A stretch of DNA of 15,455 nt from Candidatus Thorarchaeota archaeon (GCA_016840855.1 JAEORO010000215.1:1-15455); one strand, 5' to 3'. Shown: positions 1 through 15,455, counted from the stretch's first letter. The notes: a model not told the origin generated them from the sequence alone. Translations and numbers: made by a program.

Positions 1-673
1 AAATGTTGTTCATGATTGTGATATTAGGACACCAGTTGACTTGTAGAACTGCTGTGTCAAAGAAACAGTCATTCACAACTGCATTTTCACATGCTTGAAG
101 AGAAACTCTCATTGGAAACGTGGTTGCCTCACTTTCAAAAAAACTACATCCCGTAACATTACAAAAAGTTGAATCTACGAACTCAGCTGCTGCCCAATCA
201 TAGACAGTCACATAAGATTCCATCATGGCTATCTCATTACATTTATCGATTCTAATCCCTCGATATTCACTGTAAATTTCGCAATTGTCAATTGTCCCAT
301 TATCACAAGAAAGTAGTTTGATTGTGTAATTCAAGGCTGTTGGTTGAAGATGACAGCCTTTGACAGTAAAATGGACATCTACATTTCGGATTTCGATGCA
401 TATCTGTGAACTAGTGATGTTCAATCCTTCAATCATATAGGGGTTGATTTCTGAGCCGTTGCCTGGCCAGCCTTGGTCAATAAAGTCTTGATTGCTGCTG
501 ATGAAAATAGGTCCATGCGAAGTATAAGATGATTCAAAGTTCCTGGCTTCGTTCAACACTGTGAAGTATTGATTAGAAAATTTAGCATCAACTACTATGC
601 TATTTAAAATCAGCAATAGTGTGATGGATAGTAGACATAACCTTGTAGAATTTGGAGTCTTTCTTATCCCCAA
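1..673 (-). CDS. Secreted right-handed parallel beta-helix (NosD / pectin-lyase-like) protein, 5' part, runs off the left edge
   Basis: Not in the ORF track; hand-translated open frame from TTG at 673-671 to the window edge: MGIRKTPNSTRLCLLSITLLLILNSIVV (signal/TM)...HGPIFISSNQDFIDQGWPGNGSEINPYMIEGLNIT...IEIRNVDVHFTVKGC...NGTIDNCEI...NVTGCSF...NITIMNNI. The H-x-PI-x-I...GWPGNG-x3-PY-x-I motif and PbH1-like repeats are typical of archaeal NosD-like proteins. SD-like GGTGG at 687-683. Confidence 0.85.
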   Translation of the reverse strand, partial: MGIRKTPNSTRLCLLSITLLLILNSIVVDAKFSNQYFTVLNEARNFESSYTSHGPIFISSNQDFIDQGWPGNGSEINPYMIEGLNITSSQICIEIRNVDVHFTVKGCHLQPTALNYTIKLLSCDNGTIDNCEIYSEYRGIRIDKCNEIAMMESYVTVYDWAAAEFVDSTFCNVTGCSFFESEATTFPMRVSLQACENAVVNDCFFDTAVLQVNWCPNITIMNNI

Positions 674-715
674 TATGGAATCCCACCGCGTTCACAGAAT
701 AAGCAACATTCAGCT

Positions 716-730
716 CTCTTAAACTTCGTG
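716..730 (-). promoter_or_regulatory. BRE/TATA promoter for the beta-helix gene
   Basis: Minus strand reads CACGAAG-TTTAAGAG, about 45 nt upstream of the TTG at 673. Confidence 0.5.
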
Positions 731-753
731 TCATGATTTTATATCTAGCAGAT

Positions 754-767
754 GAGAGAAAACGAAA
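754..767 (-). terminator. Oligo-pyrimidine (U-rich) archaeal terminator-like tract
   Basis: Minus strand TTTCGTTTTCTCTC follows 3 nt after the closing 9-bp helix of the putative RNA. Confidence 0.4.
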
Positions 768-1017
768 GGTGGGCGTAGCTCTGTGCGAGCAACGCGGTGC
801 ATTGCCGCGCCACCACCTAATGTTTTGTGCGCCGCGTTCCGAAGAACCCATTTTGAAGTTAATCGCGAGATAAGCTCCGCACGCCAAAGAGCTTTATCGA
901 CCCGCACATTGAATATGCTACGCCCTTGTTTGGTAAAGAGATGGGAGCAATCGCAGTTAACCCTTACGGTTGGCGAAACTCCAGCGTGACTCTTGACCGT
1001 GCTATAGGTGATAGGAC
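768..1017 (-). ncRNA. Putative ~250-nt structured ncRNA, family not recognised; minus strand favoured but not certain
   Basis: About 54% GC over 771-1000 by hand count, against AT-rich flanks. Perfect 9-bp inverted repeat GGGCGTAGC 771-779 / GCTACGCCC 917-925. Nested helices 782-790/900-908, 791-801/828-838 and 869-877/889-898. GUUC-UUCG-GAAC tetraloop hairpin on minus (847-836). Second domain closed by 932-940/990-998. TATA at 1047-1040 and a U-rich tail. Confidence 0.65.
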
Positions 1018-1039
1018 ATATTATACTATCACATACTTG

Positions 1040-1072
1040 TATAAAAAGTCTGTTTGCTTGTCCGTTTTTAAG
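1040..1072. promoter_or_regulatory. Back-to-back TATA boxes: minus strand for the putative ncRNA, plus strand for the small membrane ORF
   Basis: Minus AAACAGAC-TTTTTATA (TATA 1047-1040, predicted start near G1017). Plus TTTTTAAG at 1065-1072, about 45 nt before TTG 1118. Confidence 0.45.
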
Positions 1073-1117
1073 GGAAGTAGTAACATTCAGTATTGTAGCA
1101 AAATGGTGTGACAACTG

Positions 1118-1348
1118 TTGTCTATAGTTGCTGAAAAGAATAAGATGACATCTATCAAAAAAAAGATGCCTGGTTATATGGGTAGAATTATGGTGATTCT
1201 TTCAATAATTGCATTAACAAACATGTTGACTTTCATCACTATCGATTATATCGATTATTATTCAAGATTCTTCGATCTAATTATATGGATAGGAATTGGA
1301 ATCCTTGGGTACATCTTAATATATTATGAAAATAGGAAAGTGGAATGA
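1118..1348 (+). CDS. Small hypothetical membrane protein (2 TM)
   Basis: 76 aa with a Lys-rich N-terminus and two hydrophobic segments (IMVILSIIALTNMLTFITI; FFDLIIWIGIGILGYILIYY). GGTGTGA SD-like at 1105-1111. Start could instead be ATG 1145. Very AT-rich. Confidence 0.55.
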   Translation: MSIVAEKNKMTSIKKKMPGYMGRIMVILSIIALTNMLTFITIDYIDYYSRFFDLIIWIGIGILGYILIYYENRKVE

Positions 1349-1382
1349 AAATTGGTTCTGAAATCCAAGTTCATGCCGAATC

Positions 1383-1394
1383 GCAACCTTTAAT
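1383..1394 (+). promoter_or_regulatory. BRE/TATA promoter
   Basis: GCAACC-TTTAAT; the same GCAAC-then-TATA pattern recurs at 6802-6814. Predicted start about 1417-1420, at the first base of the hairpin RNA. Confidence 0.55.
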
Positions 1395-1419
1395 CGACGT
1401 TTGTCATTTTCAAGAGTAA

Positions 1420-1505
1420 GGCCAACGTAGAGAGAGAAAGACCTTAATGTGGGACTGGATGCGAAAGTCCTCTCTAAACCGGGTTTATGTTTCAAACCTT
1501 GGCCA
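1420..1505 (+). ncRNA. Putative ~86-nt structured RNA or 5' leader with tRNA-like junction geometry
   Basis: GGCCAA 1420-1425 / TTGGCC 1499-1504; TAGAGA 1428-1433 / TCTCTA 1471-1476; GGACT 1452-1456 / AGTCC 1466-1470; GGTTT 1482-1486 / AAACC 1494-1498 with a 7-nt loop. All four helices are Watson-Crick and mutually compatible. Confidence 0.6.
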
Positions 1506-1535
1506 GATCATCAGTATTATTGGAGACATGACTAT

Positions 1536-3356
1536 ATGCGTGTATATCTAGACGCGAACTTCTTCATATCGGGCTTTTCAGAGCGGCCTAAAGATGTGAC
1601 TATTGTGAAAAAGGCCGCAGACAACGCAGGTATGGAATTATGGATTACCCGACAGGTATTCCAAGAATTACGTTGGTACCTAAGGAGAGAGGCTGAGAAT
1701 ATTGTCCAGATTGATGAAACACTTTCAAAGGATATTAAATCCTTCATGGATAGCATCACTCGACCAGAAACCTCACTACCTCAACCAAACGATATGTCTC
1801 TAATTTTGGGTGCAATGCGAAACAAGAATTCGAAAATTGTCACGAGTGATATGAAATTACTAAACACAATTCAGGACTTGAAGGTTCCAGTTGAGGGAAT
1901 TGTTGGTTCAGCATTTGTTTTGGAATTGATGGAATCAGTCGAGGACGAGAAATTACAGAAAGACTTGTCAATTATTAGAGATCGTATTTACTCAGAAGAG
2001 GTCAGATATAGTATTGCTCGACAAGAGTCTTATGACCCAGTCACCAGGATACGCATTATAGAGGATCATGCACTTCGAGTTCTAAGAACAGTGAAGAGAC
2101 CGGCTGAAGGTCTCGATAGAAAACTGTCTAAGGGGCAACCACTTTTTGTGTTGGATTTTCTAGAGGATATCAAAGCTGATATCCCAAATATGTTCGATGA
2201 CTTCAGGGAAGGGAAGTATGACAGCCTTGCGCATGAAATTGAAGCAGTCCAGAATGAGATTGAGCGCTTATTGATAGTGTCAACACTAACAGAGGATAGC
2301 GAAACACATGGTCAGCTTGTCAGGCATGCATCAGACTTGACATTGTTCCTCTATTACCTTGAAGCAATTTGCCACTTATATCGTGGAACTCGACAGGGCA
2401 TTGAAGATGCTCTCACAATCAGTGATGAAGCATTTAGATTGCTAATGTTTGCAGAGGTGACTAACGATGAACTAAAAGCCACGGTATTCTTTGTCAGAAT
2501 TGTCCTTGCACTCATTAGAGAAGATTATGAAGAAATTGACTACTATTATAGCCTCTATGATAGTATGATAAATAGGATAGGACTCACAGATATGCTAGAG
2601 ACCTCAGAAGGCCTGTATATCACTATGCAAATCTTGAGGAAGTTCATGGGTGGTTTCAGTCTTACAAAGAACAAATTGCAGCATCCAGATGTAACAATGT
2701 CAATGCTTAATGACATAGCTAAATATTCAATCCAATTTGATGACCACGATAATGCTTGGCAATTAGCTGTAACAGCTTACAAGATAGGTGTTGCATATAA
2801 TAAAGAAGAAGGAGCACTCGGTTCCTTTTTGATGCTTTACAAGGTATCTTCTTCTTCTCACGATCGGTTCAAGCCAGCTCTTGAAAAAATTGCAGAACAT
2901 GCATTGAAGGCATTTGTAAAGAAGGGATGGAATACATCGCAAATCACACCAATACTAAATGAAATACAAGGGCAGTTTCCATCTATTGAAGGCATGGCAA
3001 CAAACGGTCCAGTGGATCAGGATAAGCTAAGGAAAGAACTGACAGGATGGATGGATGTTCTCTCAGTTGAAACCATTGATAATGTTGAGATGCTTGTGGT
3101 CAGGAATGACAAGTTACAGACTCGTATTGCAATTGCAGTTGGCAATCATCCAGATCTGGGTACACTCAAGACTGGTCACAAGGTAGCACTAACAAATGGT
3201 AGCTATGAAGTAACGGATGCAAATCCTGAAGTAGTCAAAAAGTATTCTGTAGTATTGATGATTACTCCAAGCGAAAGTGCAGAGATATCATTTGAAGGCG
3301 AATATGGATTTAGCTGTTTGAAGTTAGCTGAACCAGCTGCAGAAGCAAAATCATAG
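1536..3356 (+). CDS. PIN-domain ribonuclease fused to an alpha-helical (TPR-like) region and a C-terminal beta-rich (OB-like) domain
   Basis: Start re-called at ATG 1536 (GGAGA SD at 1522-1526). PIN motifs with all four acidic residues: RVYLDANFF, ITRQVFQEL, PNDMSLI, IVTSDMKL. Middle region is amphipathic helices (LYYLEAICHLYRG...IEDALTISDEAFRL; DNAWQLAVTAYKIG). Last ~110 aa are beta-strand-like (LKTGHKVALTNGSYEV). PIN is well supported; TPR and OB calls are inference. Confidence 0.8.
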   Translation: MRVYLDANFFISGFSERPKDVTIVKKAADNAGMELWITRQVFQELRWYLRREAENIVQIDETLSKDIKSFMDSITRPETSLPQPNDMSLILGAMRNKNSKIVTSDMKLLNTIQDLKVPVEGIVGSAFVLELMESVEDEKLQKDLSIIRDRIYSEEVRYSIARQESYDPVTRIRIIEDHALRVLRTVKRPAEGLDRKLSKGQPLFVLDFLEDIKADIPNMFDDFREGKYDSLAHEIEAVQNEIERLLIVSTLTEDSETHGQLVRHASDLTLFLYYLEAICHLYRGTRQGIEDALTISDEAFRLLMFAEVTNDELKATVFFVRIVLALIREDYEEIDYYYSLYDSMINRIGLTDMLETSEGLYITMQILRKFMGGFSLTKNKLQHPDVTMSMLNDIAKYSIQFDDHDNAWQLAVTAYKIGVAYNKEEGALGSFLMLYKVSSSSHDRFKPALEKIAEHALKAFVKKGWNTSQITPILNEIQGQFPSIEGMATNGPVDQDKLRKELTGWMDVLSVETIDNVEMLVVRNDKLQTRIAIAVGNHPDLGTLKTGHKVALTNGSYEVTDANPEVVKKYSVVLMITPSESAEISFEGEYGFSCLKLAEPAAEAKS

Positions 3357-3373: not shown

Positions 3374-3805
3374 TTGGATATACTGAGTTGGGCGATCTTA
3401 GTGATCGCTGTACTACTAGCTGCGGCGTTTAATTATTACTTAAATCTCGCACCAGGATCTGATCCCGAGGATTTTCAAGTTGGCCCTCCTCAACTTGGAA
3501 TAACATGCGACTGCCCTCTAAATATCTTGATTATTGGAGGAATCATTGCTCTGGCTCTTAGCTCAGTTTCTGGATTTTTTGATTCGAGAACAGAACTTGT
3601 TATTGTTGGAATTGCATCATTTAGTATAATCACTATCGCAGGATATATTGGTAGACGTCGAAGGCACCGAGAATGGAAAGAACTGCACAAAGCTATTGAG
3701 CGGTCCGTCCCGAGCACAGCTCTTGTAGGTTATGAAAGGACTCCAATGGATATTACATTCGAAGATGATGATGAAGACTTTGATGAGCACTTTGACGATT
3801 ACTAA
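3374..3805 (+). CDS. Hypothetical membrane protein (3 TM) with basic juxtamembrane patch and acidic tail
   Basis: TTG start 17 nt after the PIN gene stop; three hydrophobic segments, a CDCP motif, RRRRHR after TM3, C-terminal EDDDEDFDEHFDDY. Confidence 0.7.
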   Translation: MDILSWAILVIAVLLAAAFNYYLNLAPGSDPEDFQVGPPQLGITCDCPLNILIIGGIIALALSSVSGFFDSRTELVIVGIASFSIITIAGYIGRRRRHREWKELHKAIERSVPSTALVGYERTPMDITFEDDDEDFDEHFDDY

Positions 3806-4264: not shown

Positions 4265-4290
4265 CGTTTTTACCTAATTAGTCATTGAGA

Positions 4291-5406
4291 ATGACAACTC
4301 CAAATATCACTGAAGGAAGGATGATTTTCAAGGTCCTTGTGGTAGGCAATGACTTACCACTGCAAACAGGGTTTCTAAGTAGAGCATCTGGAGACCGTGT
4401 TTCCGCCCAATTGTATAATACGATTGGTTTGACTTTAGGAGTAGTGAAACTTGACTATCCAAAGAACCTAAGTGTCATTCTCCAACTATGGTCAATACCT
4501 TTCTCTGATAGATTGGAAGGACTATCTCGTTCTTTTACTAAAGGACATCGTGCAATCATCCTAATTCTAAAGCCAAATGAAATCGATGATGTACCTGAGA
4601 TGTTCAATCGCCTTTCTCTGAGTCAAGATACCTCCCTAATGGTGGTATTTATTGGATCTGTGAGAGAAGCAGAAGCAGCCGCATATCAATTAGATGCGTT
4701 CATCAAAGCTCAAATGCCTGTTCACGCGGTCCAAGACATTGAAGAAATAATCAGATATGTCGCAGATAGCCTATGTTCTAATAGCTCCTCGAAAAGTCCA
4801 CTTCCTATGATAGTTGCTCTTGACGAGCATGTTTGCCCTGTCTTTGAACCTGTTATTCCCGAACCACTAACTCCACCAAACTCAATTGAAGAAATCGATG
4901 AAATTCGGTCTATAGCAAATGAACTGGGACTTCGAATTGTCAATGAATCATGTGCAATTGAGCTAGATGAGGGAGTTTTATGGGTGTGCATGAAAACCAG
5001 TGCTATTCGGATGGAACCAGAGATTTGTCGACTTTGTTCACATAGATGTAAGAGACAGTCTAACATCTGTATTGTTGGAACTGATACAGGCTGGTCTTCA
5101 ACCAATCTTGGATCGCGAGCTTTGCTTACTGTGGCAAAGATCTATGCGCTTGCAGCAAGGATGTTGCCTTCTCATGTAAAGAAGCAAATTCAAAGAGCAA
5201 CAATCTGCACACGATTTGATCCAAATCCAGCAATACCAATCGAAGATATCCCAGATGAGATTCTTCTTGGTTTCAAGGAAATGGATTCAGGGAAGTCACT
5301 TCTCGAAGCAGCAAGAGCACGAGTTAATGATGGCAGACTTTCGAATGATGTTTTCAATATGCTAAAAAAGAAATTACATAACATTGATTCCTCCGTCAGT
5401 CATTGA
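4291..5406 (+). CDS. Degenerate Rab/Ras-like small-GTPase fold (pseudo-GTPase) with a C-terminal Cys-rich domain
   Basis: FKVLVVG, YNTIG, VILQLW, DRLEGLSRSFTKGHRAIILIL align by eye to Rab FKxxxxG, YxxTIG, xxLQIWDTAGQERF, xxSYYRGAxGIILV. P-loop GK[ST], DxxG and NKxD are absent. CRLCSHRC-x6-C in the C-terminal half. ATG 4291 preferred over TTG 4285. Confidence 0.7.
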   Translation: MTTPNITEGRMIFKVLVVGNDLPLQTGFLSRASGDRVSAQLYNTIGLTLGVVKLDYPKNLSVILQLWSIPFSDRLEGLSRSFTKGHRAIILILKPNEIDDVPEMFNRLSLSQDTSLMVVFIGSVREAEAAAYQLDAFIKAQMPVHAVQDIEEIIRYVADSLCSNSSSKSPLPMIVALDEHVCPVFEPVIPEPLTPPNSIEEIDEIRSIANELGLRIVNESCAIELDEGVLWVCMKTSAIRMEPEICRLCSHRCKRQSNICIVGTDTGWSSTNLGSRALLTVAKIYALAARMLPSHVKKQIQRATICTRFDPNPAIPIEDIPDEILLGFKEMDSGKSLLEAARARVNDGRLSNDVFNMLKKKLHNIDSSVSH

Positions 5407-5422
5407 AATAGAGAGATGTACT

Positions 5423-5926
5423 ATGCCAGCAAGAGTAATTTCTGTTATTGGAGGTTCGAATAGCACACCAGAAAATCTTGAGCTAGCACAACGTGTTGGA
5501 GCTGAGATAGCAAAAAGAGGTGTGGTATTAGCGTGTGGTGGTCTGGGAGGAGTGATGGAAGCTGCTTGTAGAGGAGCAAAAAATGAAGGTGGACAGACAC
5601 TTGGCATCCTACCTACCGATGTGAAAGAACATGCAAACAAATTTGTTGACATCATAATCCCAACAGGCTTGGGGTATGCAAGGAATTTCCTTGTAGCAAA
5701 AACTGGAGACGCTATCATAGCGATTGATGGATCAGCAGGCACCTTAAGCGAGATGGCTATTGCGTGGTTTTCAGATAAGCCTGTAATATCTTTGGTCCCA
5801 ACAGGGGGATGGGCTGCAAAGCTTGCAGGGCAAAGAATAGATGAAAGACGTGAAGACACCGTATATGCCGCTAGTACTCCAGAACAGGCTGTTGAAATGG
5901 TTTTCCAAGCAATGAATTGGAAATAG
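5423..5926 (+). CDS. TIGR00725 family protein (LOG/SLOG superfamily, Rossmann-like nucleotide-binding)
   Basis: ISVIGGS, LACGGLGGVMEAACRGAK, TLGILP, PTGLGYARNFLV, IDGSAGTLSEMAIA. Start re-called to ATG 5423. Confidence 0.92.
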   Translation: MPARVISVIGGSNSTPENLELAQRVGAEIAKRGVVLACGGLGGVMEAACRGAKNEGGQTLGILPTDVKEHANKFVDIIIPTGLGYARNFLVAKTGDAIIAIDGSAGTLSEMAIAWFSDKPVISLVPTGGWAAKLAGQRIDERREDTVYAASTPEQAVEMVFQAMNWK

Positions 5927-11823: not shown

Positions 11824-14800
11824 CTAATCAAGATCAATGCCGAGGCTGCTCAGAAGAGCATCAAGATCAGCCTTTGAAAGACTCTTTGCTTCTTCTAAAA
11901 TGACATCAATCTCATCTACAGCCATTCCCTTCTTGATAAGTCTCTGGCGTAAATCCTCTAGCTCCTCAGGTCGTTGTGCAAGAGGAACTTCCTCAGGTGG
12001 AAGCTCGCGTGTCGGTGGTTTAGCCAGTACATCTGCACGACGGGCTCTCTCTTGATTGATGACCTCTTTGAGAAAGCCTGGACGTTCACTAGCTTTCATT
12101 CTAGCAAGATCAGCTCTAAATGCATCAATTTCAGAAGCGCCAAGACCTGTGATAGCAGCTAGCTCCTCAAGCAATTCATTGACTTCTGGAACTGTTGTTA
12201 TAATCGGATACTCTGCAACTTCACTCGGCTCTTTATTGAGTTTCATCGAATGAATTTCTTCATTCACTATCGCCATTGTTATATTCTGTCTACCTGCAAC
12301 ATGTGGAGGTCTTGGAATGCGGCCCTTAGCAAGAGCTCGAATCATTTTATTCATTTGTCTGATTTGCTTTGGTACACTCCATACTTTCACATAGGCGACG
12401 ATGAGTAAAGCGATGAGAATCAGAGCGGACCCGCCGCCAATTGTCAATAATTGTTGGAACTGCTGCTCTGCTGATATGTCAGACTTGATTATCAACACAA
12501 ATTGACGGGTTTCATAATCTTCCATCTGGAAGAATATGGTGACAGTGAAAGTCCTCCCAGTTTCTGCTCGAAACCACAGGGTGTATGTACCATCTTCATC
12601 AAGGGTTTGAGTTTCTAAGTAGGTTATGTTTTCATAGCTATATGATACAGAAATGTTTGCGTTGGAAATGCCAACTTGATGATCAAGATCGTAATATGTG
12701 ATAACAACAGGGAACGTTTCACCTGGAGAGGTATACACGGTATTGTTAGAATATAGCAGTATTGTATGTATTTGCCGGACTATGACGTCAAGATGAAGTG
12801 GTGCAATGGTATACTTCGTTGTTTCAAATGCAATATCAAAGCTATATGTCCCATATGGTAAATCTCCAGCTAAATTGAGTGAGTATGAGCCATTCACCAA
12901 AAGCTGAAGCTCAATGTCACCTAGTTGCGTTGAATATGCGGTTCCAATCACATCAATTATCGATGAGTTGTCTAAGAGGCTAATGACGTTGTAGATGATG
13001 CTAGTTTGATCATTAATTGGAATTGAATATTCAGTTGGACCTCGAATTTCTGCGGGAGTTGCATACACTTCTATTTTGGCTGTAACAGTTCTAGATGTGT
13101 AATTCGTTAGTGAAAATCTGACAACCAAGTCGTAAAGCCCAGGATTTTCGACATCAATTAGTACAGCAACCTCATATGATCCATTTGGATGAGAGGTGAC
13201 ATCAACTTCACTACCTTCCCAACTAGCAATTATATTGGCTCCAGTAACTAGAGAATTATGTTGAGTATCATTGTAATAGAACAAGTATGAAACTGTATCA
13301 CCGTAGTAGCCACTCTGGAGGATAGGTGTAGCAAATGCCTGTGTGGGAATGGGTAGAATAGTAATAACTATTGATTTGAGTGCAGTTGAGTACCCTGCTT
13401 TCACCGCAGTCATCCTTAGATAGATTGATTGAGAAGCTAGTGTACTTACATCAATCGTAACACTATAAGATCCATTTAATTCATCGATGAATGATCCACT
13501 GAGACTACCAATTGTATATGTGACATTGGCTCCAATGACCAGAACACCATGGAATGTATCATTATAGACAGCTCGTAACCATAATGTATCTCCAAAGAAG
13601 ACATAGCGGATAGACGTGCCATCAATCAATGCGACAGTGGTTGGAATTGGGACTATGTTAATATCAATTTCAGTTTCAATGAACTGGAGATTAGTAATAA
13701 CAGCTCTGATAATTACAGGATAATGACCAACTGCAAAACCTGTAACATCCACAGATCCTGAATACCAACCTGGAACGCCCGTAGGTGTCATGCTGAAAAC
13801 GGATCCATTCCACTCCAGTGTGGTAGTAGCACCAATAACTGGAGCATTTGTAATTGTGTTATTCAAATAAACTTCGAAATCGATTACATTGTTGATCACA
13901 GCTGTATATGTCGATTGATAAGGAATAATTTGGCCTGGAGCTTTTGAAACCACCATTGTGAATGATTTCTGTCTAGTCTGATAGAATTCACGCGATGCTG
14001 TGATTTGTGGACTGTAAATACCAAAATCTGAATCAGATGTGTCGAGAAGTAGGTAATAGAATCCATTACCAGCGTCAATGAAGGAATAGATCTCTCCATT
14101 CCATAGAAGAGTTGAGGTGAATCCGTCAACAAATGTCATGTAAAAGGGTTCTTGAATCCAGAAACTAATGTTGAGAATTTCACCCCAGTCAGCATAATAG
14201 GTTGATTTGGTGAGGACAATCTGGACAAGTTGTGCACCAGGCTGAACAGTAACTAAAGCTTGAGCGGTTTGGAAGAAGGGCTTTACAGCAGTAACTGTGA
14301 AAATATATTGTTGAGCAAGTAGACCGATTGTTTCCAGTGTGAGCGAGTAAGTCCCATCGCCAGTTTCATTCCAGTCAAATGAGTTCCCGGTTATATCAGT
14401 CCAATCAGAATCAATTATAGCTCCCTCGAGAGAAACATCATGATCAAAATCAATCAATGTTAGAACAACGATAATGTCAACGCCGATAGCTGTTGATCCA
14501 GCTGGTGGAGCCTCCGCGATTAATGATGTTTGAACCTGTCGTATCTGAGCTCGAATATTCAGTGCATCTCTATTTGAGTAGAATGGCACACCACTCCAAG
14601 AGAATGAGATATTGAAATACACTGAGCCGGTTGACCCAAACACAGTAGTATTCACAAGTAATTGATAGGCACCATTCCCTAGTCTGACTACTTGATACAT
14701 GGGACTCGACCAGTTGGTTGAGGACAATGTAACCATTGCTCCATCTATTCCAGCCCCTGAGAGGTAGTCTTTGAACTGAAGATTAATGGTGATGTTATCA

Positions 14801-15455
14801 AAGTAGGGAGTTTCTTCTACGAGTGGGAATAGAATAACCGTTGAGCGATAGGTAGTAGCTGCTGAGGTTGTTGTGTTTCTATCAGCATAATAAGGAGATC
14901 CAGAATTCCAATCAATGGATAATTGGATTTCATGACTTGAAACGAGATTGAGAGCATCAAGGACAGTTGAGTTGAAACTGATCTGGTAGTATGATCCAAA
15001 GTTAACAAGACGATACCAGCCAGAAGTAATCAGAGTGTGGGAAGATCCATGACTAAGTGTAATTTGACTCTTCCCAATAGTAATGAACGACTTGGTCAAA
15101 AAGTCTTCAAAGACAAAACTGAATGTAACATTTTCAAGGAAGGGAGTGTTACCTGGCGTCTTGATTATCCGTATCTGCGTAGGACGCTCAACAACGTTTG
15201 CTGAGATTGTTCTTAAAGAAGAACGATAATAAGGCGCTCCACTAAATGAAACAGATACATTGAGTTGATAGGTATCCGGAGGACCGAGAGCCGATGTATC
15301 GACTTCAATCAGGTATTCACCAAGCCCATTATCCGTAACCCAATAATCAGCTCCAAGCACTAGAGTGAGTGGATCACTACTAACTTGTACTGTTGCTCCA
15401 GAGATTCCTGTTCCGGTTGTGTCATCGCTGTAAGTAATTGTAAATGTTAGAATAG
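11824..15455 (-). CDS. Giant cell-surface protein with tandem ~100-aa Ig-like beta-sandwich repeats, one C-terminal TM and a ~185-aa cytoplasmic tail; 5' end outside the window
   Basis: Frame stays open from 15360 to the right edge (ILTFTITYSDDTTGTGISGATVQV...). Recurrent Y-x-D...I-x-GA-x-V...[DG]NG-x-Y-x-L...G-x-Y units; many N-x-S/T sequons; TM LLTIGGGSALILIALLIVAYVKVW at about 12450-12379. Confidence 0.88.
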   Translation of the reverse strand, partial: ILTFTITYSDDTTGTGISGATVQVSSDPLTLVLGADYWVTDNGLGEYLIEVDTSALGPPDTYQLNVSVSFSGAPYYRSSLRTISANVVERPTQIRIIKTPGNTPFLENVTFSFVFEDFLTKSFITIGKSQITLSHGSSHTLITSGWYRLVNFGSYYQISFNSTVLDALNLVSSHEIQLSIDWNSGSPYYADRNTTTSAATTYRSTVILFPLVEETPYFDNITINLQFKDYLSGAGIDGAMVTLSSTNWSSPMYQVVRLGNGAYQLLVNTTVFGSTGSVYFNISFSWSGVPFYSNRDALNIRAQIRQVQTSLIAEAPPAGSTAIGVDIIVVLTLIDFDHDVSLEGAIIDSDWTDITGNSFDWNETGDGTYSLTLETIGLLAQQYIFTVTAVKPFFQTAQALVTVQPGAQLVQIVLTKSTYYADWGEILNISFWIQEPFYMTFVDGFTSTLLWNGEIYSFIDAGNGFYYLLLDTSDSDFGIYSPQITASREFYQTRQKSFTMVVSKAPGQIIPYQSTYTAVINNVIDFEVYLNNTITNAPVIGATTTLEWNGSVFSMTPTGVPGWYSGSVDVTGFAVGHYPVIIRAVITNLQFIETEIDINIVPIPTTVALIDGTSIRYVFFGDTLWLRAVYNDTFHGVLVIGANVTYTIGSLSGSFIDELNGSYSVTIDVSTLASQSIYLRMTAVKAGYSTALKSIVITILPIPTQAFATPILQSGYYGDTVSYLFYYNDTQHNSLVTGANIIASWEGSEVDVTSHPNGSYEVAVLIDVENPGLYDLVVRFSLTNYTSRTVTAKIEVYATPAEIRGPTEYSIPINDQTSIIYNVISLLDNSSIIDVIGTAYSTQLGDIELQLLVNGSYSLNLAGDLPYGTYSFDIAFETTKYTIAPLHLDVIVRQIHTILLYSNNTVYTSPGETFPVVITYYDLDHQVGISNANISVSYSYENITYLETQTLDEDGTYTLWFRAETGRTFTVTIFFQMEDYETRQFVLIIKSDISAEQQFQQLLTIGGGSALILIALLIVAYVKVWSVPKQIRQMNKMIRALAKGRIPRPPHVAGRQNITMAIVNEEIHSMKLNKEPSEVAEYPIITTVPEVNELLEELAAITGLGASEIDAFRADLARMKASERPGFLKEVINQERARRADVLAKPPTRELPPEEVPLAQRPEELEDLRQRLIKKGMAVDEIDVILEEAKSLSKADLDALLSSLGIDLD

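What the first reader, a model, noticed from the sequence alone, without database searches (positions are those of the whole stretch)
754..3356. Candidate ribonucleoprotein system: PIN-helical-OB-like nuclease with two adjacent structured RNAs
Seen: a 606-aa protein with an apparently intact PIN acidic tetrad, a long helical region and a beta-rich C-terminus; no VapB-like antitoxin gene; two structured RNAs within about 800 nt upstream. Established: stand-alone VapC toxins are about 130 aa, whereas PIN/NYN domains joined to helical repeats or OB folds occur in eukaryotic RNA-processing factors (SMG5/SMG6, DIS3/Rrp44, PRORP). Inference: an Asgard RNA-processing or surveillance enzyme that may use one of these RNAs as scaffold, substrate or RNA antitoxin. 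Linkage to the larger RNA rests on proximity only.
Basis: inference. Interest (0 to 1): 0.75.

Follow-up and report, generated by a model that had tools for sequence, protein, structure and literature searches.

The report
PIN nuclease beside an unrelated RNA gene
A well-conserved archaeal RNA-cutting protein and a real but undescribed structured RNA sit side by side here, yet they look like independent neighbours and not a working pair.

Summary
The protein is real. It is 606 aa (window 1536-3356, +): an N-terminal PIN domain with invariant D6/E44/D86/D105, a TPR-like helical solenoid and a C-terminal beta domain. It is conserved across Thorarchaeota (at least 67% identity in 63 loci), with distant full-length relatives, some named Heimdallarchaeota.

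One upstream RNA is also real. It has a 165-nt core (762-927) plus a 5' hairpin (944-982), with 96.8% of cells paired and compensatory changes in 30 of 46 pairs. It matches no Rfam family. It lies on the opposite strand, with its own TATA-like box and U-rich end.

The RNP or RNA-antitoxin reading is not supported. The RNA lies near the gene in 23 of 60 informative loci. Three sister pairs differ, and L026 and L054 (90% identical) diverge 122 nt before the ATG. There are no tandem repeats and no defence-library hit.

The gene's constant partner is a small three-helix membrane protein just downstream (57 of 59 loci).

The segment just upstream of the gene (1411-1535), a possible second RNA, shows no covariation. 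It holds a gene-specific promoter-like motif.

The RNA's 3' end looks like an insertion hot spot for gene cassettes.

The functions of both the protein and the RNA remain inferred.

The parts
1536..3356 (+). Gene for the 606-aa PIN / TPR-like / beta-domain protein
   Evidence: ORF. Start fixed by conservation and an upstream GGAG. 145 homologues at E<=0.001, of which the 120 listed are at least 69% identical. 63 loci in genome contigs.
1536..1940 (+). PIN domain (aa 1-135) with D6, E44, D86 and D105
   Evidence: The four acidic residues are invariant in the 34-sequence alignment A2 and in the 19 distant relatives. Pfam PIN families are hit by 24 of 34 members. Foldseek matches NOB1 6zxf_y and HARP 8kda_E at probability 1.0, but with E of 0.05-0.06.
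1947..2966 (+). Two long helices (aa 138-186) and a TPR-like alpha-solenoid (aa 201-477)
   Evidence: DSSP of the AF2 model. Foldseek matches TTC5, LGN, Rap/AimR and other TPR proteins, best E 2e-3. TPR_12 is hit by 1 of 34 members.
3051..3320 (+). C-terminal beta domain (aa 506-595); strand-strand-strand-helix-strand-strand order, OB-like
   Evidence: pLDDT is about 83-92 here. The OB assignment rests only on the order of elements and on the whole-chain TTC5 match. The ESM Atlas search of aa 485-606 gave nothing above 0.79.
3374..3805 (+). 143-aa membrane protein: three hydrophobic helices, a conserved loop with CDC, a basic RRRxxEW segment and an acidic/aromatic C-terminal tail. It is the constant downstream partner of the PIN gene.
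   Evidence: Found in 57 of 63 loci, which is 57 of the 59 that extend past the PIN stop. For most loci the computed gap is 2-45 nt; where my automatic start choice gave an overlap the gap is not known. Alignment A9. No Pfam, NCBIfam or PADLOC family reached significance.
1436..1449 (+). GAAAGACCTTAATG: gene-specific BRE/TATA-like promoter motif about 87-100 nt before the ATG
   Evidence: The exact pattern GAAAGNNCTTWAWG occurs once per locus, and only at this position, in 36 of 63 loci. Near variants occur in most others. Reading it as BRE/TATA is my inference.
1385..1396 (+). AACCTTTAATCG: second conserved upstream motif (AAC[CG]TTTTTCC in other clades), about 45 nt upstream of the first
   Evidence: Seen by eye in the unaligned upstream sequences of most loci. 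Not counted formally.
1522..1525 (+). GGAG ribosome-binding site
   Evidence: Conserved in nearly all 63 loci.
762..927 (-). Core of the conserved structured RNA. P1 pairs 917-925 with 771-779. It has a four-way junction (P2-P5).
   Evidence: Covariance model R1: 183.7 bits in the window, 131-191 bits in 23 loci. Pair counts. No Rfam family at the gathering score or at E<=10.
804..817 (-). Invariant P5 loop segment GGUGGUGGCGCGGC
   Evidence: Exact match in all 23 RNA-bearing loci and in no other locus.
877..885 (-). Invariant P3 loop segment GGCGUGCGG
   Evidence: Alignment A5. The pattern is found at the RNA in all 23 loci.
944..982 (-). 5' hairpin domain with an apical GUAA loop
   Evidence: For my hand-drawn structure on 20 sequences, 85.5% of cells pair against 33-49% slid, and 5 of 11 pairs have two-sided changes. 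RNAalifold itself predicted no pairs. The domain is replaced by other sequence in L026, L056 and L041.
1039..1048 (-). CTTTTTATAC: TATA-like box of the RNA gene. The inferred start is near 1015-1022.
   Evidence: A similar T/A box at this spacing is visible in most RNA-bearing loci (by eye). The start site is inferred, not mapped.
754..767 (-). U-rich tract (UUUCGUUUUCUCUC) directly after P1 and ACC; probable terminator
   Evidence: Pyrimidine-rich in all aligned sequences. Its terminator function is inferred.
1118..1348 (+). 76-aa hydrophobic ORF in an AT-rich insert between the two promoters; not part of either unit
   Evidence: GC 0.31. tblastn finds it only in L002 and L005. In most other RNA-bearing loci the RNA core ends about 330-440 nt before the ATG, against 609 nt here.
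2..673 (-). NosD/beta-helix protein gene; probably one of the variable cassettes inserted behind the RNA's 3' end
   Evidence: Pfam Beta_helix. In L004 its homologue lies between the RNA and a partial copy of the RNA's 3' end.

Best explanation
The interval holds two separate transcription units that are neighbours by descent. They do not form one system.

UNIT 1 (plus strand)
- A vertically inherited two-gene unit with its own gene-specific promoter-like motif.
- The first gene is a 606-aa PIN / TPR-like / beta-barrel protein. The second is a 143-aa three-helix membrane protein.
- Most likely mechanism (inferred): the PIN site (D6, E44, D86, D105) holds Mg2+/Mn2+ and cuts single-stranded RNA.
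- The beta domain and the helical solenoid would choose the substrate or an adaptor.
- The solenoid may dock the acidic/aromatic C-terminal tail of the co-encoded membrane protein. That would place a housekeeping RNA-processing or decay endonuclease at the membrane.

UNIT 2 (minus strand)
- An independently transcribed RNA of roughly 260 nt: a 5' hairpin plus a 165-nt four-way-junction core.
- It belongs to no described family and acts in trans on an unknown partner.
- Its 3' end serves as an attachment site where gene cassettes pile up.

SHOWN: the protein architecture, residue conservation, gene order, RNA structure and strand, and decay of adjacency.
INFERRED: nuclease activity, membrane tethering, the RNA's ends, and the functions of both.
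For: PROTEIN
- Invariant acidic residues; model pLDDT 83.6; PIN and TPR structural matches.
- 63 loci, one match each; two of them (L050, L063) are contigs of the same MAG.
- Identity to the window's protein is 67-95% across loci. In the same loci the neighbours are looser: Roc 28-74%, cupin 41-82%, metallophosphatase 42-70%.
- No PADLOC hit.

PARTNER GENE
- The membrane protein follows in 57 of the 59 loci that extend past the stop.

OWN PROMOTER
- GAAAGNNCTTWAWG occurs once per locus, always 85-115 nt before the ATG, in 36 of 63 loci.

RNA IS REAL AND ON THE MINUS STRAND
-. By my sum of the per-pair table, 156 of 1077 paired cells are G-U or U-G. These would be A-C mismatches on the plus strand.
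- TATA-like box upstream and U-tract downstream.

INDEPENDENCE
- The RNA is present in 23 of 63 loci, and 37 of the 40 without it have more than 1.2 kb upstream.
- The tree needs at least 5 changes. Sister pairs L026/L054, L056/L033 and L041/L043 differ.
- Homology between L026 and L054 breaks 122 nt before the ATG.

INSERTION SITE
- Direct partial copies (25-49 nt) of the RNA's 3' end lie 1.4-3.4 kb behind it in 6 loci.
- The cargo differs between them: M3 peptidase, MFS transporter, Ras-like GTPase, NosD beta-helix, LRR protein.
- Window 304-802 is colinear with L001 1-500. L001 then carries a 1.5-kb insert followed by the intact RNA.
- A 200-aa surface-type protein is the older downstream neighbour in 16 RNA-bearing loci.
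Against: - Within a well-supported clade of 21 rows, the RNA always sits 326-609 nt from the gene. It also appears near the gene in three distant places on the tree. Adjacency is therefore probably ancestral, and a looser functional tie cannot be excluded.
- Whether the RNA and the gene co-occur genome-wide was not tested.
- No enzymatic, expression or binding data exist.
- The window protein's own Pfam scores are below the cut-offs.
- All Foldseek E-values exceed 0.001 and TM-scores are low (0.13-0.26 on the query).
- The membrane-tether idea rests on gene order and the look of the tail alone.
- No recombinase was found in the inserted cassettes, so the insertion mechanism is unknown.
Confidence: 0.68

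Rival explanations
1. One reading: the PIN protein and the neighbouring RNA form a dedicated ribonucleoprotein. The RNA would be scaffold, guide, substrate or RNA antitoxin.
For: - Divergent neighbours 326-609 nt apart in 21 of the 23 RNA-bearing loci, plus the window.
- Adjacency is probably ancestral, since it recurs in three distant branches.
- The protein has plausible RNA-binding parts.
- The P5 loop UGGUGGCGCGG is complementary, on paper, to a tRNA-type 3' end. The PIN domain has weak HARP-like signals.
Against: - Opposite strand, with separate promoter-like boxes.
- Adjacency is lost in 37 of 60 informative loci and between near-identical sisters.
- No tandem repeats.
- The gene's constant partner is a membrane protein, not the RNA.
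- The RNA gene behaves as an autonomous, conserved target for insertions.
Confidence: 0.08
2. A toxin-antitoxin or anti-virus defence module: a VapC-like PIN toxin with an unconventional antitoxin, either the downstream membrane protein or an RNA.
For: - The PIN domain belongs to the VapC structural group by its best Pfam matches (PIN_12/DUF4935, PIN; PMC5499597 passages).
- A SLOG-domain gene with weak PADLOC PsyrA/ShosA matches lies 2 kb downstream.
Against: - 606 aa, against about 130 aa for a stand-alone VapC.
- No upstream DNA-binding antitoxin gene.
- No PADLOC hit for the protein or its partner.
- One match per locus, in a gene block that is conserved across 63 loci.
- High sequence conservation, the opposite of the patchy, fast-evolving pattern usual for such modules (established knowledge, recalled).
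Confidence: 0.04
3. The RNA is a cis-acting leader (riboswitch-like or attenuator) of the gene that follows it on the minus strand.
For: The RNA ends in a U-rich tract and is followed by a same-strand gene in 18 of the 20 loci examined. One 200-aa protein family is the immediate follower in 8 of 20 and lies further down in 8 more.
Against: - The immediate follower belongs to at least 10 unrelated families.
- Cassettes insert between the RNA and the old follower while regenerating the RNA's 3' end. This fits a stand-alone RNA gene better than a leader.
- The structure closes on itself (P1), followed directly by the U-tract.
Confidence: 0.06
4. The protein is an enlarged relative of the minimal protein-only RNase P (HARP, PIN_5) and processes tRNA 5' ends.
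For: - Foldseek matches HARP 8kda_E over 189 columns at probability 1.0 (E 0.058, TM on target 0.47).
- 4 of 34 members hit PIN_5 (best E 7e-5).
- The distant member P0138 hits NCBIfam RNA_lig_partner/PRK04358 models at E 2e-5 to 7e-3, far below cut-offs.
- That these NCBIfam models cover the HARP family is my inference from the title of PMC12153264 (listing only).
- Two long helices follow the PIN core.
Against: - The window's own protein hits neither PIN_5 nor those NCBIfam models.
- A profile of the N-terminal 200 aa finds no solved HARP by sequence.
- In HARP the two spike helices are inserted within the PIN domain and the protein is about 23 kDa and forms dodecamers (PMC8266387 passages). 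Here the helices follow the domain and lead into 400 further residues.
- NOB1 matches about as well.
Confidence: 0.1

Closest known systems
PIN-domain endoribonucleases of RNA maturation (Nob1, Fcf1/Utp24) and the VapC structural group of the PIN-like superfamily
   Same: - Predicted alpha/beta PIN fold with four conserved acidic residues.
- Conserved, vertically inherited gene.
- Some sources label homologues 'rRNA-processing protein FCF1'.
   Different: - No Nob1 zinc ribbon and no Fcf1 Pfam match.
- It carries about 470 further residues (TPR-like solenoid plus beta domain).
- It is paired with a membrane protein.
- Its best Pfam match is PIN_12/DUF4935, of unknown function (PMC5499597 passages).
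HARP, the minimal protein-only RNase P (PIN_5)
   Same: A PIN core with two long helices. There are weak profile and fold signals.
   Different: - Three times the length.
- The helices follow the PIN domain and are not inserted in it.
- No sequence match to solved HARPs.
- Activity untested.
TTC5/STRAP (TPR domain followed by an OB fold; binds ribosomes translating tubulin)
   Same: Best whole-chain Foldseek match (4abn, E 2e-3; 6t59, 8bpo). It covers 449-463 columns, so it is a helical repeat region followed by a beta domain. TTC5's domain make-up and role are recalled, apart from the PDB titles.
   Different: TM-scores are only 0.16-0.23 and identity 11-13%. TTC5 has no nuclease domain. This is likely a generic repeat-protein resemblance.
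tRNA and tmRNA genes as attachment sites of integrative elements
   Same: Inserts sit at the 3' end of a conserved structured RNA gene. They regenerate that end and leave a displaced partial copy as a direct repeat.
   Different: - The RNA is not a tRNA or tmRNA.
- The inserts are only 1.4-3.4 kb.
- They carry ordinary cargo genes and no recognisable integrase.
Type III toxin-antitoxin systems (ToxIN-like: protein toxin with an upstream repeat-RNA antitoxin)
   Same: A nuclease gene with a structured RNA encoded just upstream.
   Different: - The RNA is on the opposite strand.
- It is a single copy, not a tandem repeat.
- It is not linked in most genomes.
- The protein is a PIN protein, not a ToxN-type endonuclease.

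Membership tests
PIN-like nuclease superfamily | Three to five conserved acidic residues forming the metal site | tested here: met
   D6, E44, D86 and D105 are invariant in 34 sequences and in the 19 distant ones alone.
PIN-like nuclease superfamily | Alpha/beta/alpha fold with a central parallel sheet | tested here: met
   Predicted only. The AF2 model has strands at 2-5, 34-38, 99-102 and 119-122 with intervening helices. Foldseek matches NOB1 and HARP at probability 1.0 but E 0.05-0.06.
PIN-like nuclease superfamily | Profile match above the curated cut-off | tested here: inconclusive
   The window protein scores PIN_12 27.4 bits (cut-off 32) and PIN 18.1 bits (cut-off 23.6). 24 of 34 members match PF01850 at E<=0.01.
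PIN-like nuclease superfamily | Metal-dependent nuclease activity | not testable with these tools
   Needs an enzyme assay.
VapBC type II toxin-antitoxin | Small stand-alone PIN toxin with an adjacent, usually upstream and overlapping, DNA-binding antitoxin gene | tested here: not met
   The protein is 606 aa. The upstream ORF 1118-1348 is hydrophobic and present in the window plus 2 of 63 loci. The downstream gene is a membrane protein.
Type III toxin-antitoxin (RNA antitoxin) | Tandem-repeat RNA encoded upstream on the same strand as the toxin | tested here: not met
   The only tandem repeat in 600-1600 is a 9-nt unit at 2.1 copies inside the small ORF. The RNA is on the opposite strand.
Known anti-phage defence systems (PADLOC) | Profile match of the protein or its partner | tested here: not met
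   0 families for both at E<=0.01.
HARP / PIN_5 protein-only RNase P | PIN_5 (PF08745) or RNA_lig_partner profile match | tested here: not met
   The window protein has no match. Only 4 of 34 relatives match PIN_5, and one relative matches weakly below cut-offs.
HARP / PIN_5 protein-only RNase P | About 23 kDa, with a spike-helix pair inserted in the PIN domain | tested here: not met
   The protein is 606 aa and helices 138-186 follow the last PIN strand. HARP features come from PMC8266387 passages.
   PIN is N-terminal. No RNB, S1, PPR or NYN Pfam hit. None of these proteins appears among the listed Foldseek matches.
TPR repeat proteins | Tandem helix-turn-helix repeats forming a solenoid, recognisable by profile or fold | tested here: inconclusive
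   Foldseek matches the LGN TPR domain at probability 1.00 with TM on target 0.37-0.40, and other TPR proteins. Pfam TPR_12 is hit by only 1 of 34 members. Atlas look-alike clusters carry TPR_12 in 17% of members.
Any described RNA family (Rfam 15, including archaeal RNase P RNA, SRP RNA, 5S rRNA, snoRNAs); tRNA/tmRNA | Covariance-model match, or ARAGORN detection | tested here: not met
   No match at gathering scores in the window. Only unrelated chance matches at E<=10 in the window, L026 and L017. ARAGORN finds 0 genes.

The most novel reading that the evidence does not exclude
The RNA is an unrecognised housekeeping RNA of Thorarchaeota that works on tRNA-like 3' ends.
- Its invariant loop UGGUGGCGCGG could pair with ...CCGCGCCACCA.
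- GGUGG could pair with its own ...CCACC tail.
- It was ancestrally encoded head-to-head with a HARP-like PIN enzyme because the two act in one pathway of RNA end processing or quality control.
- The pairing of genes would have decayed later in most lineages.

Separately, the serial cassettes behind the RNA would mark a new, recombinase-in-trans insertion system in Asgard archaea that targets this RNA gene.
Probability: 0.07. Interest if true: 0.85.

Novelty: new variant of a known kind. Interest (0 to 1): 0.45.

Why it matters
- The PIN / TPR-like / beta-domain protein with its membrane partner is among the most conserved genes of this block in Thorarchaeota. It reaches Heimdallarchaeia, and Atlas look-alike clusters hint at Thermoplasmatota. 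It has no assigned function.
- Archaea lack clear counterparts of the bacterial membrane-bound RNA decay initiators (recalled). A membrane-tethered endonuclease would therefore be worth testing.
- The RNA is a well-supported structured RNA absent from Rfam 15. Its use as an insertion site suggests it is a stable, probably important gene.
- For the scan, the lesson is negative. Proximity alone suggested an RNP, and comparative genomics does not support it.

Tried and rejected
IDEAS TESTED AND DROPPED
1. The conserved motif upstream of the gene as the loop of a leader hairpin. By eye several clades showed complementary flanks. A systematic test folded 22-nt flanks with the motif kept unpaired and compared 200 flank shuffles per sequence. 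Mean z was +0.30, and only 3 of 45 sequences had z < -1.5. Rejected; the motif is read as a promoter.
2. The gene-proximal segment 1411-1535 as a structured RNA. Only an invariant inverted repeat GGCCAA...TTGGCC exists in the close clade, with no covariation.
3. The RNA on the plus strand, as a 5' leader of the gene. Rejected by the alifold energies and the G-U counts.
4. Identity with RNase P RNA, SRP RNA, 5S rRNA, tRNA or H/ACA RNA. There is no model match. My motif comparisons by eye were from memory and found nothing convincing.
5. An integrase in the inserts. None was found in Pfam or PHROGs.

SEARCHES THAT GAVE NOTHING USEFUL
6. Sequence searches of the PDB with the whole-protein and N-terminal profiles found nothing relevant at E<=10.
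7. An ESM Atlas search of the C-terminal domain gave a best score of 0.79, which is uninformative.
8. Literature: 0 papers hold 'Asgard' + 'PIN domain' + 'TPR'. The listings showed nothing on this RNA or protein (listings only).

CALLS THAT FAILED OR WERE UNAVAILABLE
9. Complex prediction for the protein with the membrane protein was not available, so binding stayed untested.
10. The listing of cluster members for the taxa of the distant relatives could not be made. Names came instead.
11. The search for related loci with the deep alignment A2 failed because no stretch was conserved enough. A1 was used instead.
12. A batch fold failed on a length limit and a paper search on a short term. Neither was repeated.

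UNCHECKED
- Metagenome and viral contig collections, which were closed.
- Genome-wide distribution of the RNA.
- Gene context of the Heimdall and Thermoplasmatota-like relatives.

Full report
WHAT IS IN THE INTERVAL

The plus-strand ORF 1449-3356 starts in practice at the ATG at 1536.
- Homologues begin with MRVYLDANFF.
- A GGAG lies about 10 nt upstream in nearly all of 63 related loci.

Between the left edge and this gene lie three things.
- A minus-strand beta-helix (NosD-like) gene at 2-673.
- A G+C-rich stretch at about 750-1030 (GC 0.45-0.49 against about 0.38 around it).
- An AT-rich stretch with a 76-aa hydrophobic ORF at 1118-1348.

THE PROTEIN

Sequence evidence:
- The window protein's Pfam PIN matches are sub-threshold (PIN_12 E 5e-6, 27.4 bits against a cut-off of 32; PIN E 4e-3).
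- 24 of 34 family members match PF01850 at E<=0.01, and smaller numbers match PIN_12, PIN_3, PIN_8 and PIN_5.
- In an alignment of 34 members reaching 18% identity, D6, N8, I11, E44, P82, D86, D105, L108, S125 and I172 are invariant. The 19 distant members alone show the same. The acidic set is intact and under selection.

Structure prediction:
- With the shallow alignment the N-terminus folded poorly (mean pLDDT 70.8).
- With the deep alignment the model reached 83.6.
- The model has a PIN-type alpha/beta domain (aa 1-135) and two long helices (138-186).
- These are followed by about 14 further helices forming a solenoid (201-477) and a beta domain (506-595).
- The first elements of the beta domain run strand-strand-strand-helix-strand-strand, which is the OB order.

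Fold comparison:
- Foldseek against the PDB gave no match at E<=0.001.
- Best matches were TTC5 (TPR plus a beta domain, E 2e-3, TM 0.16-0.23) and many TPR proteins (LGN probability 1.00, TM on target 0.37-0.40).
- For the PIN part the matches were NOB1 (6zxf_y, 144 columns) and the minimal RNase P HARP (8kda_E, 189 columns), both at probability 1.0 and E about 0.05-0.06.
- Profile searches of PDB sequences found nothing.

'OB-like' stays plausible but unproven. The named eukaryotic analogues did not appear.

DISTRIBUTION OF THE PROTEIN

- 145 database proteins match at E<=0.001. The 120 listed are 69-100% identical and about 600 aa. Those that carry a source name are almost all called Thorarchaeota.
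- An exhaustive search of 50%-identity representatives found 45 proteins. They include full-length relatives at 21-47% identity.
- Some relatives retrieved with a profile of these are named Heimdallarchaeota.
- ESM Atlas look-alike clusters (score 0.94, 192-195 of 256 features shared) are from Promethearchaeota and Thermoplasmatota. This is a lead only, without an alignment.
- In one genome per species, 63 loci were found, all Thorarchaeota-type MAGs under various names. Two of them (L050, L063) are contigs of the same MAG.
- Identity to the window protein is 67-95%. That is tighter than most neighbouring genes in the same loci.
- PADLOC has no match.

This pattern fits a housekeeping gene. 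It does not fit a toxin or defence gene.

THE GENE'S REAL PARTNERS

- Downstream gene order is kept in almost every locus: membrane protein, cupin on the other strand, Roc GTPase, SLOG, metallophosphatase, DUF362.
- The 143-aa protein at 3374-3805 follows in 57 of the 59 loci that extend beyond the stop codon.
- For most loci the computed gap is 2-45 nt. The negative gaps come from my automatic choice of start codon.
- The protein has three hydrophobic helices and a conserved loop (N20, Y21, N24, A26, G28, P31, D33, C45-D46-C47 invariant).
- It also has a basic RRRxxEW segment and an acidic tail ending in aromatic residues.
- I infer co-transcription.
- More speculatively, I infer that the solenoid binds this tail, as TPR domains bind acidic C-terminal peptides in other systems (recalled). 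The complex predictor was not available.

Upstream, the motif GAAAGNNCTTWAWG occurs once per locus, always 85-115 nt before the ATG, in 36 of 63 loci. Near variants occur in most others.
- In the window it is no commoner than chance when mismatches are allowed, so it is gene-specific.
- I read it as a BRE/TATA-type promoter.
- A second motif (AACCTTTAATCG here) lies about 45 nt further up.

THE RNA

- blastn with 740-1030 found the region upstream of the gene in related loci. The alignment shows long invariant stretches separated by covarying stems.
- RNAalifold gives 27 pairs and -29.5 kcal/mol on the plus strand. On the minus strand it gives 42 pairs and -48.1 kcal/mol.
- A covariance model of the 165-nt core found it, always on the strand opposite to the gene, in the window (762-927, 183.7 bits) and in 23 of 63 loci (131-191 bits).
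- On those 24 sequences, 96.8% of 1077 cells form standard pairs (30-47% with partners slid by 1-3 columns). 30 of 46 pairs show changes on both sides (6-12 slid). No shuffle out of 500 reached any observed measure.
- By my sum of that table, 156 cells are G-U or U-G, which a plus-strand RNA could not tolerate.

Architecture of the fold:
- Terminal helix P1 (GGGCGUAGC/GCUACGCCC) and a stacked P2.
- A four-way junction with P3 (loop UUUGGCGUGCG), P4 (loop AAAAUGG) and P5.
- The large P5 loop holds the invariant GGUGGUGGCGCGGC (exact in all 23 loci and nowhere else in them).
- P1 is followed by ACC and a U-rich tract.
- Upstream on the same strand is a hairpin with a GUAA loop (944-982). Support is moderate: 85.5% paired against 33-49% slid, for a structure I drew myself. 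RNAalifold predicted none.
- Further up is a TATA-like CTTTTTATAC (1039-1048), seen in similar form in most loci.

I infer a transcript of roughly 260 nt. No Rfam family matches at gathering scores or at E<=10 in three divergent copies. ARAGORN finds nothing.

If the second was meant to be the segment next to the gene (about 1415-1505), it is not supported.

IS THE RNA LINKED TO THE GENE?

- In 21 of the 23 RNA-bearing loci the core ends 326-609 nt before the ATG. In L056 the distance is 1.1 kb and in L041 it is 2.3 kb.
- 40 loci lack the RNA within the fetched flank. 37 of these have 1.25-6 kb of upstream sequence.
- On a maximum-likelihood tree of 60 full-length proteins, one clade of 21 rows (support 100/99) has the RNA throughout (20 rows, 1 without flank).
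- Three further cases are scattered, each beside a sister without it (L026/L054, L056/L033, L041/L043). At least 5 changes are needed. Rows left out: L052, L058, L062 and L063, which have truncated genes.
- L026 and L054 are 90% identical from 122 nt upstream of the ATG through the gene and unrelated further up.

Adjacency is therefore probably ancestral but freely lost. The boundary of what travels with the gene lies between its promoter region and the RNA. With the opposite strand, separate promoter-like boxes and no tandem repeats, this argues against a dedicated RNP or RNA antitoxin. It cannot exclude a trans relationship, because genome-wide co-occurrence could not be tested.

WHAT HAPPENS BEHIND THE RNA

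- In six loci a direct partial copy (25-49 nt, 88-97% identical) of the RNA's 3' end lies 1.4-3.4 kb beyond it.
- The DNA between carries unrelated cargo: M3 peptidase, MFS transporter, Ras-like GTPase, NosD beta-helix protein, LRR protein, and ORFs of no family.
- Window 304-802 is colinear with L001 1-500, including a slightly decayed copy of the RNA end. L001 then has a 1.5-kb insert and only then the intact RNA.
- A 200-aa protein with terminal hydrophobic segments is the immediate same-strand follower in 8 of 20 loci examined. It lies beyond the inserts in 8 more.
- This is the pattern left by elements that integrate into the 3' end of tRNA genes. No integrase was found.
- It also argues against the RNA being a leader of a particular downstream gene.

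COMPARISON WITH WHAT IS KNOWN

- The protein is a PIN-like nuclease by residues and predicted fold. It fails the tests for VapBC, type III systems, HARP and the eukaryotic multi-domain PIN/NYN proteins (see the membership table).
- Its best Pfam family, PF16289, was DUF4935: a VapC-group PIN-like family of unknown function, mostly bacterial (PMC5499597, passages seen).
- HARP is a roughly 23-kDa PIN_5 protein with a spike-helix pair inserted in the domain, and it forms dodecamers (PMC8266387, abstract and passages seen). The resemblance here is a lead only.
- I found no paper on this architecture or this RNA. One search returned 0 papers, and searches were listings only.

VERDICT

What remains are two uncharacterised but ordinary-looking items.
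- A conserved PIN / TPR-like / beta-domain nuclease gene with a membrane-protein partner.
- An independent, well-supported structured RNA gene that serves as an insertion site.

Noticed in passing
window 2-802; L001 1-2189; L004 3192-5645; L005 1831-3936; L009 2058-5647; L040 4070-5645; L052 3204-5575: Variable gene cassettes sit behind the RNA's 3' end. They are flanked by a direct partial copy (25-49 nt) of that end. L001 has a 1.5-kb insert relative to the window. No recombinase was recognised.
   Followed up: partly
L002 4612-5196 (-) and homologues in 15 other RNA-bearing loci: A roughly 200-aa protein with N- and C-terminal hydrophobic segments and no Pfam family (one weak Ig-like hit). 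It is the older same-strand neighbour downstream of the RNA and is absent from all loci without the RNA.
   Followed up: partly
window 1419-1424 and 1498-1503: The invariant inverted repeat GGCCAA ... TTGGCC brackets the promoter-like motif of the PIN gene in the 14 closest sequences only. There is no covariation. It could be a DNA-level operator pair.
   Followed up: partly
window 5384-5926 (+): A SLOG cluster-4 domain protein (Pfam E 2e-45) with weak PADLOC matches to PsyrA and ShosA. It is part of the conserved gene block downstream of the PIN gene.
   Followed up: no
window 4285-5406 (+): A 373-aa protein with a weak N-terminal Roc/Ras-type GTPase match. It is conserved in place in most loci but diverges fast (28-74% identity).
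   Followed up: no
window 11824-15360 (-): An ORF of 1178 aa with no Pfam family at E<=0.01. It runs towards the right end of the window.
   Followed up: no
window 1118-1348 (+): An AT-rich (GC 0.31) insert with a 76-aa hydrophobic ORF. It is present only in the window, L002 and L005, and it widens the spacer between the RNA and the PIN gene from about 350 to about 600 nt.
   Followed up: partly
window 804-817 and 766-772 (-): On paper, the invariant loop GGUGGUGG could pair with the RNA's own 3' tail CCACC(U), or with a tRNA-type ...GCCACCA end. Both partners are invariant, so there is no covariation to test it.
   Followed up: no
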